A DNA stretch of 57,276 nt from Desulfurococcaceae archaeon (GTDB lineage Archaea > Thermoproteota > Thermoprotei_A > Sulfolobales > NBVN01): assembly GCA_020832985.1 (NCBI GenBank), contig JAJHRE010000003.1:1-57276 (forward strand), given 5' to 3'. This document shows positions 20,236 to 48,799 of the stretch, piece by piece; within the stretch, counting starts at the first letter, position 1, and every line of letters begins with the position of its first letter. A program made the translations under genes and the position numbers. The notes beneath the pieces were generated by a model that saw only the letters and a list, made by a program, of their open reading frames with translations, did not search any database and was not told the origin of the DNA.

Positions 20236-21568
20236 CTACATCACCACTAAATCATTAAGCTAGAGTTTAAAACTTTACTACGTGTTATGCTGTGAGGTCA
20301 TTTAGTCATACCTAAGTTTATAACCTTACTAACTACTCTATCTATGGGTGGATATGCTAGCAAGTATAAAGAGAAGGCTTCAGTCATTATTCATAAGGTC
20401 ATACATAGAGTGTTCAGCATCTACTATCTCTAAAGCAGTCTCAAGGCTTCAGACATCTGTTACTGCGATGGGTGTTAACTCAGCGTTCTGTATGTTTAAG
20501 ATCTTGAAGAGTTTTAGAAAGGGTGGTAAACATAGTGTTGTGGGTGGAGGTAGGGATGGTGATAAGGTTTAAACTACTGAATAAAATTTAAAAGTTATGT
20601 TTTAGAATGTTAAGACTGCTCTCCCTCTAACCTCCCCCCTCTTAAGTTTCTCGATGGCTGTGTTAACCTCCTCAAATTTGAATAACTCTACACGTGGTTT
20701 TACCTTACCATCAGATACTAGTTTTAAACTCTGAAGTATGTCATTCCTTGTGAATCCTATATTACCTACTACCTTAATATCCTTTAATATCCAGTCTATC
20801 ACTGGTAGTGATAACTCACCTACTGGCAACCCTATAAGTACTAAAGTCCCTCCAGGCCTTAAGGATTCGTAGGCCTGCCTCATAGCTTTAAGGGATTCTA
20901 CCGTAGGTAATGCTACGTCAGCACCTCCTAAGTCCTTAATATATTTGACAGGGTCTTCCTTAGAAGCATTTACTACGTAGTCAGCACCTAACTCCTTAGC
21001 GAATTCTAACTTACTCTCAAGTACATCTACAGCAACTACCTTAGCACCTAACACCTTCGCTATCTGAACAGCGTTATGTCCTAAACCACCTATACCGAAG
21101 ACAGCGACTAAATCCCCGGGATATACCCTAGAAGCGAATGTAAGTGCTCTATAAGGTGTTGCTACAGCATCCGTAGCTGAAGTAGCTTCTGGGAACGGTA
21201 CGTTATCAGGGATTTTAAGTACGTGGGATGCTGGAGCTCTAACAAACTCAGCATAACCACCATCAACACTATAACCAGTATTTAACTGATTCTCACATAT
21301 ATTCTCACGACCTACTAAGCAATACCTACACCTACCGCAAGTCCACCAAAGCCATGATAACGCAACCCTATCACCAGGCTTTAAATGAGTAACACCATCA
21401 CCAACAACCTCAACAACACCTGCAACTTCATGACCAAGTATATGAGGTAGTGGTTTAGGTAATGGAATCTTACCCTCAATAATCTCAAGATCTGAATGAC
21501 ATATACCTACAGCCTTAACCCTAATGACGACCTCACCGAATCCAAGCTGTTACAGAATTGACGGTAGG

Positions 21569-21576
21569 TTTAAATA
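21569..21576 (+). promoter_or_regulatory. TATA box (TTTAAATA) of element A, about 25 nt upstream of the GC-rich RNA core
   Basis: ACAGAATTGACGGTAGGTTTAAATATC is conserved in copy B (ACAGATCTGATGGTAAGTTTAAATAGC) and copy C (ACAGTATTGATGGTTAAATAATGC). Confidence 0.55.
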
Positions 21577-21597
21577 TCTAAAATTATACAATTATTT

Positions 21598-21776
21598 AGA
21601 TCCTATGATCCGCACTGCGGTGAGGTGTACTGAGTAGTGATGAACCTATACCCTCAGATGGGAGCCTCATGGCGTTAGGCTCTACTGGGGCCCATGGAGT
21701 GTGGGTGAAGCTAATGAACCCACACCAAGGCCCAACCCCGTTAACGGAAATACAAGTACCGTTAGCGGGGAACGCT
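21598..21776 (+). ncRNA. Unclassified GC-rich structured RNA (core of element A) with a K-loop-like CUGA-GUA-GUGAUGA motif
   Basis: It is a GC island in an AT-rich genome. Proposed hairpins are CGCACTGCG, GAGGTGTA/TATACCCTC flanking the K-loop, GAGCCT/AGGCTC, GTGTGGGT/ACCCACAC and CCCCG...CGGGG. Differences from copy B preserve pairing (G-U versus G-C). Confidence 0.55.
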
Positions 21777-29215: not shown

Positions 29216-29295
29216 AACATAGACCCTAGATTAAATTTTAAGTAAAGCTAAAATACTTTAGCTCTACTAATGGAATGCTTTTTATAGCATTTCCG

Positions 29296-29545
29296 GGTTG
29301 CTGACGGCTCCCGCCATGAATGGCGAGGGTTCTAACCCTCTAGGGCTTTCCCTCATTGATCAGAGCCCCTCACGGGTGCGGCATCACTACTCAGGCCCCG
29401 CCGTCAGCTCCGGAGAGGTGTGAGCTCATAGCCTGTTAAGCTCGCCCACACCCAACACCAGGAAGAGGTACTGGAGCAAAACCTTATAATCTTTTCGATA
29501 GAACACCTCCCCGCCCTAAAGGACTGAGCCTCCAACAAAAAGCGA
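29296..29545 (-). ncRNA. Unclassified GC-rich structured RNA (copy C), a divergent and larger relative of the element A/B RNA
   Basis: A ~250-nt GC island with a long-range helix GCTGACGGC (29300-29308) / GCCGTCAGC (29400-29408). The identical K-loop-like motif CTGAGTAGTGATG lies on the minus strand at 29382-29394. The hairpin GTGTGGGCGAGCTTAA... resembles A's GTGTGGGTGAAGCTAA. Confidence 0.5.
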
Positions 29546-29775
29546 ATATTCATACATGTTATATAATTATAGCATTATTTAACCATCAATACTGTTCCAC
29601 CACCATTATTCAGTAGGTGGTAGTTCATAGTCCTTTACTTTCTCAGACTCATCCTATCTACTTTTCAACGGCTGTATTACCCTACCACTCTATAGGAGTT
29701 GTTCACCTCTAGTTACCTGAAGGTACACCCATCCCCATCAGGTAATCAGAGTTCATAAAAAGCTTCGTAAACCTC
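29530..29775. repeat. Direct repeat unit, copy 1 (partner at 30402-30680)
   Basis: Collinear shared blocks, copy 1 versus copy 2. CAGTAGGTGGTAGTTCAT vs CAGTAAGTGGTACTTCAT. TATCTACTTTTCAA vs TATCTACTTCTCAA. TTCACCTCTAG vs TTCACCTCTCTAG. GTTCATAAAAAGCTTC vs TTTCATAATAAGCTTC. The adjoining TATA/leader block is also shared. Confidence 0.6.
29559..29597 (-). promoter_or_regulatory. Promoter module of RNA copy C (ACAGTATTGATGG-TTAAATAA plus ATAATTATATAA)
   Basis: The same ACAG-NN-TGAYGG...TTAAATA...AATTATAYAA arrangement is found upstream of copies A and B. Confidence 0.45.
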
Positions 29776-29913: not shown

Positions 29914-30342
29914 CTACCTCCAATACTTCGGAGGTTCACTTTTCCTAATGCTTTCTTTCGGTTCCCATGTAAATCTCCAATACCCTCTACCAACATCTTC
30001 AAGTGCTATGTTAAGCTCACTTATCATCTTATCACTTAGTAAGACTTCATCAGCTAGGGGTGAGATGACGACGTCTGCCTCAACATACTGGGTATCTATG
30101 TTGGGTACTATGACTTTTACTTTAACAGCTTTTGACGCTACCCAAACTCTTAAGGGACCTCCAGCTGTCTCAAAAACACTCTCATCAATACCCCTTACTG
30201 GAGGCCAGAGTGTAAGGGATTCCGCAACTTTAACCGGTATTAAAACTTGCGGAGTTTCAGACTCATAACCACTATTTGCAAGTGCTGATGTCTCAACCCT
30301 CGCCCCCTCTTTAACTAACTCTATCCTCACTCTTACAACCAA
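29914..30342 (-). CDS. Retropepsin-like (clan AA aspartic protease, archaeal DTGF-type family) homologue with the Asp-Thr-Gly replaced by Asn-Ser-Gly
   Basis: The 142-aa layout VETSALANSGYESETPQVLIPVKVAESL...VEADVVISPLADEVLLSDKMISELNIAL fits the small archaeal retropepsin-like family. The start is TTG at 30342 (or GTG four codons later). Confidence 0.5.
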   Translation of the reverse strand: MVVRVRIELVKEGARVETSALANSGYESETPQVLIPVKVAESLTLWPPVRGIDESVFETAGGPLRVWVASKAVKVKVIVPNIDTQYVEADVVISPLADEVLLSDKMISELNIALEDVGRGYWRFTWEPKESIRKSEPPKYWR

Positions 30343-30401: not shown

Positions 30402-30680
30402 CCTATAAAAACAGTCTCTCTCCTACACATACACGTCATAATATACTTAAAGATATTTAAACCTTCATTAAAACGTTTGGAAGCACACTTTCAGCATTTA
30501 AAGAAATTATTTCTCAGTAAGTGGTACTTCATCCCTTTCATATTCGTTAATTTTAATCTTACTATCTACTTCTCAATAACTCCCTTACCCACTACAGTCC
30601 TGACTATGAAAGCTCACTTACCGTCTAGGGTTATGACTTCTTTCACCTCTCTAGCTAGTTTCATAATAAGCTTCTCTTAA
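30402..30680. repeat. Direct repeat unit, copy 2 (partner at 29530-29775)
   Basis: See copy 1. It includes AATGAAGGTTTAAATATC (minus strand), homologous to the promoter module of RNA copies A, B and C. Confidence 0.6.
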
Positions 30681-48542: not shown

Positions 48543-48799
48543 AGCGTTTCCCCGCTTTCAATATCTACGGGGTTGGGCCTTGGTGTGGGTTCATTAGCTT
48601 CACCCACACCTCATGGGCCCTAGTCGAGCCTAACGCCATGAGGCTCCCATCTGAGGGTGTAGGTTCATCACTACTCAGTACACCTCACCGCAGTGCGGAT
48701 CATAGGGTCCAAGTAATTATGGATTCCTAAATATTTAAACATTACTCTAAGAACCAGATATCTACAGCTATTTAAACTTACCATCAGATCTGTAGCAGC
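48543..48799 (-). mobile_element. Copy B of the promoter-plus-structured-RNA module (inverted relative to copy A), intergenic
   Basis: The reverse complement aligns end to end with 21546-21776. The ~135-nt core has about 5 substitutions. It has an extra ~40 nt with a second TATA (minus-strand GTTTAAATAT, 48731-48740) and a shorter terminal hairpin loop. The K-loop motif is at 48665-48678. Confidence 0.75.

What the first reader, a model, noticed from the sequence alone, without database searches (positions are those of the whole stretch)
29296..29597. Divergent, larger relative of the A/B RNA with the shared sequence blocks in a different order
On the minus strand this locus has the same promoter module (ACAGTATTGATGG-TTAAATAA...AATTATATAA). 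It has a similar 5' segment (GCGGGGAGGTGTTC versus A's GCGGTGAGGTGTAC) and the identical CTGAGTAGTGATG K-loop motif. It also has a hairpin, GTGTGGGCGAGCTTAA..., very like A's GTGTGGGTGAAGCTAA.... That hairpin lies 5' of the K-loop here but 3' of it in A and B. Such a difference in block order between homologues could reflect domain insertion or rearrangement, or passage through a circular intermediate. The RNA also has a 9-bp long-range helix (29300-29308 / 29400-29408) closing a multi-hairpin domain. It ends ~80 nt upstream of the aldolase-MFS operon on the same strand.
Basis: partly seen in the sequence, partly recalled or inferred. Interest (0 to 1): 0.65.

Follow-up and report, generated by a model that had tools for sequence, protein, structure and literature searches.

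The report
Solo transposon guide-RNA gene with K-turns
The locus is a protein-less miniature copy of an archaeal TnpB transposon that keeps only the transposon ends, its own promoter and a 161-nt structured RNA, most likely the nuclease's guide-RNA scaffold. It is not a rearranged or circularly permuted version of the neighbouring A/B RNAs.

Summary
The 9-bp long-range helix is real and is supported by covariation.

The functional unit is smaller than proposed: a 161-nt RNA core on the minus strand (29460→29300), driven by an internal TATA box (29490-29484). It sits inside a ~242-bp element (29541-29300) bounded by two similar subterminal hairpins.

I recovered more than 40 homologues from hot-spring metagenomes, a Methanomethylicota MAG and Vulcanisaeta genomes. 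All have the same block order. The structure pairs in 98.9% of cells, with 8 compensatory pairs. It contains a K-turn and a K-loop, both motifs of the L7Ae-binding type.

Full-length elements carry a 370-400 aa protein with a Cas12f/TnpB fold between the left hairpin and the RNA promoter. This gene lies on the opposite strand to the RNA. All 5 homologues looked up through the protein alone show this arrangement.

Left flanks share TCAC. Right flanks are unrelated from locus to locus.

C is therefore a PATE-like solo ωRNA element. The unusual features belong to the family: the guide gene is transcribed divergently from its own promoter and carries two K-turn motifs.

Similarity to A/B is weak (p≈0.005). 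A/B's K-loop is lineage-specific, so no permutation is needed. Transcription and guide function could not be tested.

The parts
29300..29460 (-). Conserved RNA core (161 nt), read 5' to 3' as 29460 to 29300. This is the predicted ωRNA-like scaffold.
   Evidence: Covariance model R1, built from 31 homologues, scores it at 167.5 bits (E 1.8e-35, full length). Structure: 98.9% of cells paired, 8 pairs with compensatory changes, 0/500 shuffles reach this. About 12% of cells are G-U pairs, which fixes the minus strand as the folded strand.
29416..29453 (-). Hairpin H1, with a K-turn made of GA (29443-29442), a C-stem GCTT/AGGC and the bulge-plus-GA segment TATGA (29430-29426).
   Evidence: 10+4 base pairs, 6 of them with compensatory changes. 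The GA...NNN-GA residues are invariant or nearly so. They are also kept in RNAs found through the protein, where the C-stem covaries.
29400..29408 (-). 5' strand of the long-range helix (GCTGACGGC).
   Evidence: Pairs with 29308-29300. 98.2% of cells are paired in 31 sequences, with GU/AU/GC alternation at column 57/173.
29380..29397 (-). K-loop hairpin GGC-CUGA-GUAG-UGAUG-CC.
   Evidence: Exact motif located. CUGA-N4-7-UGAUG is kept in all homologues, including 6 RNAs found through the protein and not through this motif.
29334..29379 (-). Nested helices P-a (GCACC/GGT-T) and P-b (GGGG/CCCT), with a conserved internal loop ..UGA-N4-UGAG...
   Evidence: AU↔GC covariation occurs in P-a in 9 sequences. 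The same domain is recognisable downstream of the Thermofilum tnpB. The window copy has a 1-nt deletion that unpairs one P-a base pair.
29300..29328 (-). 3' subterminal hairpin (CCTCGCC-ATTCAT-GGCGG) followed by the 3' strand of the long-range helix, GCCGTCAGC. This is the right end of the element.
   Evidence: Homology among loci stops right after GTCAG(C/A), and the flanks beyond are unrelated. Loose ends of metagenome contigs fall at 29296-29298.
29280..29299 (-). Predicted guide segment (AACCCGGAAATGCTATAAAA). This is host flank transcribed from the element.
   Evidence: Inference from ωRNA architecture. The first T4 run lies 46 nt downstream, so read-through is expected. There is no second copy of this sequence in the window.
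29481..29496 (-). The family's own promoter, aaaagATTATAAgg, about 25 nt upstream of the RNA core.
   Evidence: The block AAGCTTATAA(G/A) followed by ~25 nt sits at the same place in all miniature and full-length copies. Activity was not tested.
29504..29541 (-). Left end of the element: spacer TTTTTGTT plus the subterminal hairpin GGAGGCTCAGTCC-TTTA-GGGCGGGGAGGTG.
   Evidence: Aligned left ends of 23 loci. In full-length copies the antisense of this hairpin encodes the C-terminus (LPALKGEAS) of the TnpB-like protein. It gives a weak HgcC match of 19.7 bits against a gathering score of 50.
29542..29546 (-). Transposon-adjacent motif. It reads TTCGC here and TTCAC in sister strains.
   Evidence: TCAC lies directly left of the element in 21 of 23 loci, and sequence further left is unrelated. 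The change 29543 C>T on the plus strand, which restores TTCAC, is present in the same-locus contigs of runs X3, X8, X9 and X10.
29560..29597 (-). It lies in the flank, outside the C-type element.
   Evidence: It is shared only with A and B in this window. It is absent from the left flanks of C-type copies elsewhere. Whether it is homologous to the A/B left end is unresolved.

Best explanation
C is a miniature, protein-less (PATE/MITE-like) derivative of an IS200/IS605-like, tnpB-only transposon family of Thermoproteota. The element spans 29541-29300 on the minus strand.

Layout of the element:
- It was inserted just after a TTCAC motif.
- It starts with a subterminal hairpin.
- It carries its own BRE/TATA promoter.
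- It encodes a 161-nt RNA whose last helix ends exactly at the right transposon end, so transcription runs on into host DNA.

Full-length relatives carry a Cas12f/TnpB-fold nuclease gene between the left hairpin and the RNA promoter, on the opposite strand.

Proposed mechanism, by analogy with TnpB-ωRNA systems. The RNA folds into a scaffold made of H1 with a K-turn, a K-loop hairpin and nested helices, closed by the 9-bp long-range helix. L7Ae probably stabilises it at the two K-turn-type motifs. A TnpB made elsewhere in the genome binds it. The ~16-20 nt of flank at its 3' end then act as the guide. The complex would cut the TTCAC-plus-flank joint that reappears if the element is excised, so that recombination restores the element.

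What is shown:
- family membership
- structure and covariation
- strand
- conserved ends and TCAC flank
- multi-copy, mobile distribution
- linkage to the TnpB-fold gene

What is inferred:
- transcription
- L7Ae binding
- TnpB binding
- guide function

The window copy is fixed in its population and slightly decayed: the flank motif is mutated to TCGC and one P-a pair is lost.
For: 1. Family. 41 homologous loci were found in metagenomes, plus one in a Methanomethylicota MAG and others in Vulcanisaeta. All are collinear.
2. Structure. 40 pairs, 98.9% of cells paired, 8 compensatory pairs, 0/500 shuffles reach this, and slid controls pair at ~44%. G-U pairs make up ~12% of cells, which fixes the strand.
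3. Copy number. Depth rises from ~200 to ~19,800 over 29297-29509 in run X1 and from ~130 to ~5,460 in X8, with many different flanks. One 190-kb contig holds two copies, and L019 holds two copies ~1.6 kb apart with a tnpB-like gene between them.
4. Ends. Left and right hairpins are similar, TCAC lies left of the element, and the right flanks are unrelated. The sister-strain variant restores TTCAC at C.
5. The protein:
- Pfam Cas12f1-like_TNB match
- weak NCBIfam guided_TnpB match
- AlphaFold model with pLDDT 82.7
- all top Foldseek hits are Cas12f/TnpB, best E 5.7e-12
- invariant D...D...D residues and a CxxC...CxxC zinc finger
6. Linkage tested from the protein side. All 5 distinct homologues looked up (57-80% identity) have the RNA 180-350 nt upstream of the start codon on the opposite strand, at 94-150 bits. 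One of them sits in three different genomic contexts.
7. A 38%-identical Thermofilum homologue has the related P-a/P-b/CAGAA/terminal-hairpin domain directly downstream on the same strand, which is the canonical ωRNA position.
8. PATE-like elements that encode ωRNAs used in trans are documented (PMC10055086).
Against: - No RNA-seq could be found for this organism or the family, so transcription, RNA ends and strand rest on promoter position and G-U bias.
- In this clade the RNA is not where ωRNAs normally lie (3' end of tnpB, same strand). A different cognate RNA at the 3' end of tnpB cannot be excluded.
- The Thermofilum matches are weak (11 bits) and rest partly on my reading of the alignment.
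None lies in the window.
- No empty site or excision joint for C was seen in eight metagenome runs.
- The K-loop and part of its flank were fixed by my metagenome search pattern, although RNAs found through the protein also have it.
- The window copy carries two small lesions and may be inactive.
Confidence: 0.7

Rival explanations
1. The RNA is linked to the transposon but is not the guide. It could be, for example, a regulator of tnpB or of transposition, or a scaffold for another factor. The TnpB-like protein would then use a conventional RNA from its own 3' end, which overlaps the left hairpin.
For: In this clade the RNA is divergent from tnpB rather than at its 3' end. The 3' end of tnpB also carries a conserved hairpin that ends at a transposon boundary.
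Against: The RNA does not overlap the tnpB mRNA, so it is not an antisense regulator. Its conserved 3' helix abuts the transposon end, with variable flank behind it and usually no early terminator, which is the ωRNA layout. A related RNA domain sits in the canonical downstream position in Thermofilum. The left-end hairpin alone (~30 nt) is small for a TnpB scaffold.
Confidence: 0.12
2. C has been domesticated as a cellular L7Ae-binding small RNA. Alternatively, it acts as an outward-reading promoter or leader that influences the aldolase-MFS operon 84 nt downstream.
For: C is fixed at this site in all sister strains sampled. Its flank motif is mutated in the window strain, so it may no longer move. 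It is transcribed towards the operon, with no T4 run for 46 nt.
Against: Other family members lie next to unrelated genes. The aldolase has its own TATA-like box about 27 nt before its ATG. The guide segment has no second match in the window. The copy shows decay rather than new constraint.
Confidence: 0.08
3. C is a divergent homologue of the A/B RNA whose shared blocks were reordered by domain rearrangement or passage through a circular intermediate.
For: Shared blocks are above chance (p≈0.005), and their apparent order differs. Circular isoforms of archaeal ωRNAs have been reported (PMC12558985).
Against: C's order is the invariant order of its own family. A-type homologues lack the K-loop block. 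A collinear alignment of B to the C model scores at least as well as the permuted one. The blocks are generic K-turn or K-loop hairpins. A/B queries do not find C-type loci.
Confidence: 0.04
4. The conserved pairing reflects single-stranded DNA structure needed for transposition (recognition of the ends by TnpA), not an RNA.
For: IS200/IS605 elements move as single-stranded DNA and need subterminal hairpins. G·T wobble pairs are tolerated in DNA, so the strand bias alone does not prove an RNA.
Against: A conserved BRE/TATA box sits at a fixed ~25 nt before the core. Two RNA-specific K-turn-type motifs have invariant G·A positions. A seven-helix, 161-nt fold is far more than TnpA needs.
Confidence: 0.04

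Closest known systems
PATE-like minimal IS200/IS605 elements that encode ωRNAs (Geobacillus stearothermophilus; Meers et al., PMC10055086)
   Same: Both are protein-less. Both are bounded by the two similar subterminal hairpins of the parent transposon, with a conserved short motif left of the left end and no inverted repeats. Both carry the guide-RNA scaffold at the right end, to be used in trans by a TnpB encoded elsewhere.
   Different: This one is archaeal. Its RNA has its own BRE/TATA promoter and two K-turn-type motifs. In the parent element tnpB lies on the opposite strand. No activity data exist.
TnpB ωRNA/reRNA of IS200/IS605 elements (ISDra2; archaeal sotRNAs, Rfam RF02656/RF02657; Sulfolobus TnpB)
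   Same: In both, a structured scaffold ends at the transposon right end, the guide comes from the flank, and the partner is a RuvC/zinc-finger TnpB-fold protein.
   Different: Canonical ωRNAs overlap the 3' end of tnpB on the same strand and are processed from its transcript. Here the gene is separate, divergent and driven by its own promoter. There is no significant Rfam match (sot0042 10.7 bits, E 6.8).
IscB ωRNA and Cas12 tracrRNA genes encoded apart from the nuclease ORF
   Same: In both, the guide or scaffold RNA gene lies outside the nuclease ORF and upstream of it.
   Different: IscB ωRNA is on the same strand as iscB and belongs to a different protein family. tracrRNAs work together with CRISPR arrays, and none is present here.
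The A/B RNA elements of the same window (21546-21776 and 48543-48799), read by an earlier agent as a miniature IS607 with a TnpB guide scaffold
   Same: Both are small mobile elements with their own promoter, a GC-rich structured RNA, K-loop motifs and a terminal CCCCG...CGGGG hairpin. A-type and C-type elements occur together in the same contigs elsewhere (L010, L009).
   Different: They are different families (15.6 and 10.8 bits against the C model). Their ends and insertion sites differ: A has no TCAC at its left flank. A/B's CUGAGUAGUGAUG hairpin is absent from A-type relatives.
Archaeal box C/D sRNAs (C'/D' K-loop)
   Same: CUGA-N4-UGAUGA is the D'/C' K-loop arrangement that L7Ae binds.
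   Different: C has no terminal C and D boxes, no 10-12-nt guide spacers and a size of 161 nt. It is not a C/D sRNA.

Membership tests
TnpB ωRNA / PATE-like IS200/IS605 mini-element | The conserved RNA scaffold ends at the transposon right end, and the 3' flank (guide) is unrelated between copies. | tested here: met
   Homology stops after GTCAG(C/A). 29 right flanks are unrelated, and only 1 has a T-run at once.
TnpB ωRNA / PATE-like IS200/IS605 mini-element | Full-length relatives carry a TnpB (RuvC plus zinc-finger, Cas12f-like fold) gene within the same ends. | tested here: met
   Pfam TNB domain. AlphaFold model with pLDDT 82.7. Foldseek top hits are Cas12f/TnpB, E 5.7e-12. The RNA is present next to 5 of 5 homologues found through the protein.
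TnpB ωRNA / PATE-like IS200/IS605 mini-element | The ωRNA overlaps or follows the 3' end of tnpB on the same strand. | tested here: not met
   In the Vulcanisaeta-like clade the RNA lies 180-350 nt upstream of the tnpB start on the opposite strand. The feature is met only, and weakly, in a 38%-identical Thermofilum relative.
TnpB ωRNA / PATE-like IS200/IS605 mini-element | IS200/IS605-type ends: similar subterminal hairpins at both ends, a conserved 4-5-nt motif left of the left end, no terminal inverted repeats and no target duplication. | tested here: met
   Left and right hairpins are CCNCGCC-loop-GGCGGGG. TCAC is present in 21 of 23 left flanks. TTCAC is present at C in sister strains. The right end reads (T/C)CAG.
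TnpB ωRNA / PATE-like IS200/IS605 mini-element | The RNA is transcribed, bound by TnpB and directs TAM-dependent DNA cleavage. | not testable with these tools
   No RNA runs hold the sequence. Biochemistry is needed.
TnpB ωRNA / PATE-like IS200/IS605 mini-element | A Y1 TnpA and a partner tnpB are present in the same genome to act in trans. | not tested
Neither gene is in the window.
A/B RNA family of this window | Significant collinear sequence and structure match to A/B. | tested here: not met
   Model R1 scores B at 15.6 bits and A at 10.8 bits, against 167.5 for C. nhmmer with A/B finds A-type copies but no C-type locus.
Circularly permuted RNA gene | Block order differs from that of orthologues in other genomes. 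| tested here: not met
   The order is identical in all 38 aligned homologues.
Box C/D sRNA | Terminal C (RUGAUGA) and D (CUGA) boxes, with 10-12-nt guides on both sides of a C'/D' motif. | tested here: not met
   Only the internal CUGA-GUAG-UGAUG is present. Only chance-level snoRNA matches appeared in the Rfam E-value scan.
HgcC RNA (Rfam RF00062) | Score at or above the Rfam gathering threshold (50 bits). | tested here: not met
   19.7 bits, E 0.066, and only over the left-end hairpin region 29486-29577.
L7Ae-binding RNA (K-turn / K-loop) | Tandem sheared G·A pairs beside a 3-nt bulge and a canonical stem (K-turn), or a loop in place of that stem (K-loop). | tested here: inconclusive
   Both sequence patterns are present and invariant, and the C-stem covaries. 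Binding itself was not tested.

The most novel reading that the evidence does not exclude
The C family reveals an undescribed OMEGA layout in Thermoproteota with three features:
- A compact TnpB/Cas12f-fold nuclease has its guide-RNA gene on the opposite strand, with its own BRE/TATA promoter, reading outward across the transposon end.
- The guide scaffold is built around a K-turn and a K-loop, so the host protein L7Ae would be a third component of the nuclease complex.
- Solo copies such as C are trans-acting guide genes scattered through the genome.
Probability: 0.45. Interest if true: 0.72.

Novelty: new variant of a known kind. Interest (0 to 1): 0.55.

Why it matters
For this window, the result settles what the 'C RNA' is. 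It is a transposon relic, not a new cellular RNA class or a permuted gene, and the A/B/C resemblance comes from shared K-turn modules.

Beyond the window, TnpB guide RNAs are described as lying at the 3' end of tnpB on the same strand. A clade whose guide gene is separate, divergent and driven by its own promoter would change how such RNAs are searched for, because annotation pipelines look downstream of tnpB. It would also explain why public annotation calls a spurious 49-aa ORF over this RNA.

If L7Ae is part of the complex, this would be a natural case of a host RNA chaperone built into an RNA-guided nuclease. It would also be a hyperthermophilic, roughly 375-aa candidate for heat-stable genome-editing tools.

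Tried and rejected
Searches that found nothing:
- Rfam at gathering thresholds over the whole window gave no hit.
- The Rfam E-value scan gave only sub-threshold matches: HgcC 19.7 bits, sot0042 10.7 bits and chance snoRNA hits.
- BLAST against plasmid records gave no match.
- A viral-contig pattern scan gave 0 hits.
- Searches for RNA-seq runs for C and for a metagenome homologue gave none.
- No precise empty site was seen in eight metagenome runs. The joints listed there come from other copies.
- The predicted guide has no second target in the window.

Ideas considered and dropped:
- RNase P RNA (GAGGGAAAGCCC and CAGAACCC resemble CR-I and CR-V) and SRP RNA. The two 'P4 strands' are only 8 nt apart, the RNA is multi-copy, and Rfam gives no match.
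- An H/ACA sRNA. There is no ACA box and no pseudouridylation pocket.
- A box C/D sRNA. There are no terminal boxes.
- A pseudoknot between the CCUCCCC linker and the P-b loop. I inspected the alignment and saw no complementarity or covariation.

Inconclusive: MAFFT alignment of C's left flank with the A/B left ends could not show whether the 'promoter module' is a remnant of an A-type element.

19 of the 60 metagenome pattern hits were unrelated sequences, most of them copies of one high-GC region; I discarded them.

The copy number of C-type elements and the presence of tnpB and tnpA in the window's own genome are therefore unknown.
Full report
**Observation.**
- ACAGTATTGATGG-TTAAATAA at 29595 and onwards
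- GGCGGGGAGGTGTTC at 29515-29501
- the hairpin GGGTGTGGGC...GCTCACACC at 29453-29416
- CTGAGTAGTGATG at 29394-29382, which is identical in A and B
- the 9-bp helix 29408-29400 / 29308-29300

The RNA core ends 84 nt before the ATG of a DHDPS-family aldolase, which is followed by an MFS transporter gene.

Against dinucleotide shuffles, the best block shared by C and A is reached by 6 of 1000 shuffles. The three best order-free blocks together are reached by 1 of 300. The resemblance is real but weak. Rfam has no family for the locus.

**Relatives.** Laying hot-spring metagenome contigs on the region showed that depth jumps from ~200 to ~19,800 exactly over 29297-29509. Dozens of contigs there are 85-95% alike and carry different flanks (the same pattern appears in four further runs).

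One pattern scan of species-representative genomes found a single locus, in a Methanomethylicota MAG. One scan of metagenome contigs found 60 loci, of which 41 are true homologues.

All homologues share one architecture:
- TCAC in the left flank
- a left hairpin, GGAAGCCTCGCC-TTTTAA-GGCGGGGAGGTG
- an A-rich stretch and a TATA box (AAGCTTATAA)
- about 25 nt of spacer
- a ~160-165-nt core ending in ...GGCGGGGAGCCGTCAGC
- unrelated sequence beyond that end

**Structure.** An alignment of 31 distinct cores gives a consensus of seven helices. 98.9% of cells are paired and 8 pairs show compensatory changes. None of 500 shuffles reaches this, and slid controls pair at ~44%. About 12% of cells are G-U pairs, which would be A·C on the other strand. 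The folded strand is therefore the window's minus strand.

It is 98% paired, with GU/AU/GC alternation at one pair.

Two motifs of the L7Ae-binding type are present:
- H1 holds a K-turn: GA, then a covarying 4-bp stem, then a 3-nt bulge and GA.
- The second hairpin is a K-loop, CUGA-N4-7-UGAUG.

My search pattern had fixed the K-loop. However, RNAs later found through the protein alone also have both motifs.

**The element and its protein.** In about a third of the loci, a 370-400-aa ORF lies between the left hairpin and the RNA promoter, on the opposite strand to the RNA. Its C-terminus (LPALKGEAS) is encoded by the antisense of the left hairpin.

The evidence that this protein is a TnpB relative:
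- It has the Cas12f1-like TNB domain.
- It gives a weak guided_TnpB match.
- It has invariant D...D...D residues and a CxxC...CxxC zinc finger.
- Its AlphaFold model (pLDDT 82.7) has only Cas12f, TnpB and Fanzor structures as best matches, from E 5.7e-12.

Homologues occur in Vulcanisaeta and Thermofilum.

I then tested the linkage from the protein side. All 5 distinct homologues that I looked up (57-80% identity) have the C-type RNA 180-350 nt upstream of their start codon on the opposite strand, at 94-150 bits. One homologue sits in three different genomic contexts.

A 38%-identical Thermofilum homologue instead has a related RNA domain directly downstream on the same strand, which is the canonical ωRNA position. 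That domain has compensated P-a and P-b helices, the GAAC-AUGA loop, CAGAA and a terminal hairpin. This match is weak (11 bits) and rests partly on inspection.

Element ends:
- Left flanks share TCAC immediately before sub-family-specific element sequence, and are unrelated further out.
- Right flanks are unrelated and usually lack an early T-run.

These are the marks of an IS200/IS605-type element with a transposon-adjacent motif and a guide-reading RNA. The protein-less copies are PATE-like derivatives, as described for Geobacillus (PMC10055086).

**Anatomy of C in the window.**

| Feature | Coordinates (minus strand) | Sequence or note |
|---|---|---|
| Flank motif | 29546-29542 | TTCGC; same-locus contigs of sister strains read TTCAC (29543 C>T) |
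| Spacer and left hairpin | 29541-29504 | |
| BRE/TATA | 29496-29481 | |
| RNA core | 29460-29300 | 167.5 bits |
| Predicted guide | 29299-29280 | |

The copy is fixed in all sampled strains. It carries a 1-nt deletion that unpairs one base pair of helix P-a. In this window the combination of that motif and a TATA box occurs only at A, B and C. It is absent from the flanks of C-type copies elsewhere, and its relation to the A/B left end stayed unresolved.

**Relation to A/B and the 'different order'.** The C model scores B at 15.6 bits (E 0.035) and A at 10.8 bits (E 0.39).

The alignment to B is collinear. B's K-loop hairpin aligns with H1. B's GGGCC...GUGUGGG-UGA-AGCUAA-UGA-ACCCACAC...GGCCC aligns with P-a and P-b. 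The terminal hairpins align with each other.

A/B-type copies exist in two of the fetched contigs (L010, L009), and there they lack the CUGAGUAGUGAUG hairpin. That block was therefore gained within the A/B lineage.

C's block order is the same in every homologue. The apparent permutation arises from matching generic K-turn or K-loop hairpins at non-equivalent positions. No circular intermediate is needed.

**Mechanism, and what is shown versus inferred.**

Shown:
- a conserved, strand-specific RNA fold
- a promoter-like element at a fixed distance
- a mobile, multi-copy distribution
- IS200/IS605-like ends with a TCAC flank motif
- strict linkage to a TnpB-fold gene

Inferred:
- transcription from the internal promoter into the flank
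- L7Ae binding at the two K-turn-type motifs
- loading into a TnpB supplied in trans
- cutting of the TTCAC-plus-flank joint after excision, so that the element is restored by recombination

**Comparison and novelty.** As an object, C is a PATE-like solo ωRNA element, which is a known kind. Two features depart from described TnpB systems. The guide gene is separate, has its own promoter and lies divergent to tnpB. The scaffold also contains two K-turn-type motifs. Full-text searches for TnpB with L7Ae, kink-turn or Vulcanisaeta found no description of either feature. I read two earlier notes of this scan after forming this view. They reach similar readings for A and for a third RNA family elsewhere in the same genome. 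They are leads, not independent evidence.

**Limits.**
- No RNA-seq was available.
- E-values from the shortened model calibration are rough.
- The metagenome set was selected through the K-loop pattern.

Noticed in passing
window 29919-30084: A second stretch with raised summed depth (about 2-4.5 times in run X8, and raised by varying amounts in X9, X10 and X12) and many 80-90%-alike contigs. It lies inside the 'retropepsin-like' ORF region just upstream of C, so that ORF may itself sit in or overlap a repeated element.
   Followed up: no
window 29600-29775 and 30402-30680: Two ~250-bp units share collinear blocks (GGGTAA..TTGA.AAGTAGATAG..ATGAA.TACCAC.TACTGA). Its nature is unknown.
   Followed up: partly
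L010:1057-1318 and L009:3037-3196: A/B-type elements occur in the same metagenome contigs as C-type elements, but they lack the CUGAGUAGUGAUG K-loop hairpin present in A and B. That hairpin is a variable expansion segment of the A-type RNA.
   Followed up: yes
L064:131-215 (Thermofilum MAG): A textbook box C/D sRNA with its own TATA box lies just upstream of the Thermofilum tnpB homologue. Read by eye, it runs GAUGAGG - 10 nt - CUGA - GCAG - UGAUGA - 12 nt - CUGA.
   Followed up: no
L066-L075, about 130 nt upstream of and overlapping the start of each tnpB homologue: Public gene calls place a 49-aa ORF just upstream of, and overlapping the start of, every tnpB homologue, in the short gap between the RNA gene and tnpB. 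It has no Pfam hit and is probably a spurious call.
   Followed up: partly
window 29486-29577 (minus strand): There is a weak match to Rfam HgcC (19.7 bits, E 0.066) over the left-end hairpin, CCUUUAGGGCGGGGAGG. HgcC is a high-GC RNA of unknown function from AT-rich hyperthermophiles and might itself be a transposon-end or ωRNA-related sequence.
   Followed up: no
L019:1-290 and L019:10-179; L025 and L032 on contig Ga0080004_1059295: L019 holds two C-type RNA copies ~1.6 kb apart, one on each side of a tnpB-like gene. One 190-kb contig holds two copies.
   Followed up: partly
L020, L024 and L026 flanks: In L026 the 12 nt just left of the left hairpin (TTGGCAGTAAGT) equal the first 12 nt of the right flank of the related copies L020 and L024. 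This could be the trace of a right-end/left-end joint or of tandem insertion.
   Followed up: no
window 29272-29294 (minus strand): A perfect 8-bp hairpin, GGAATGCT-ATAAAA-AGCATTCC read on the minus strand as GGAAATGCTATAAAAAGCATTCC, lies in the host flank directly after the element's right end, inside the predicted guide and read-through region.
   Followed up: no
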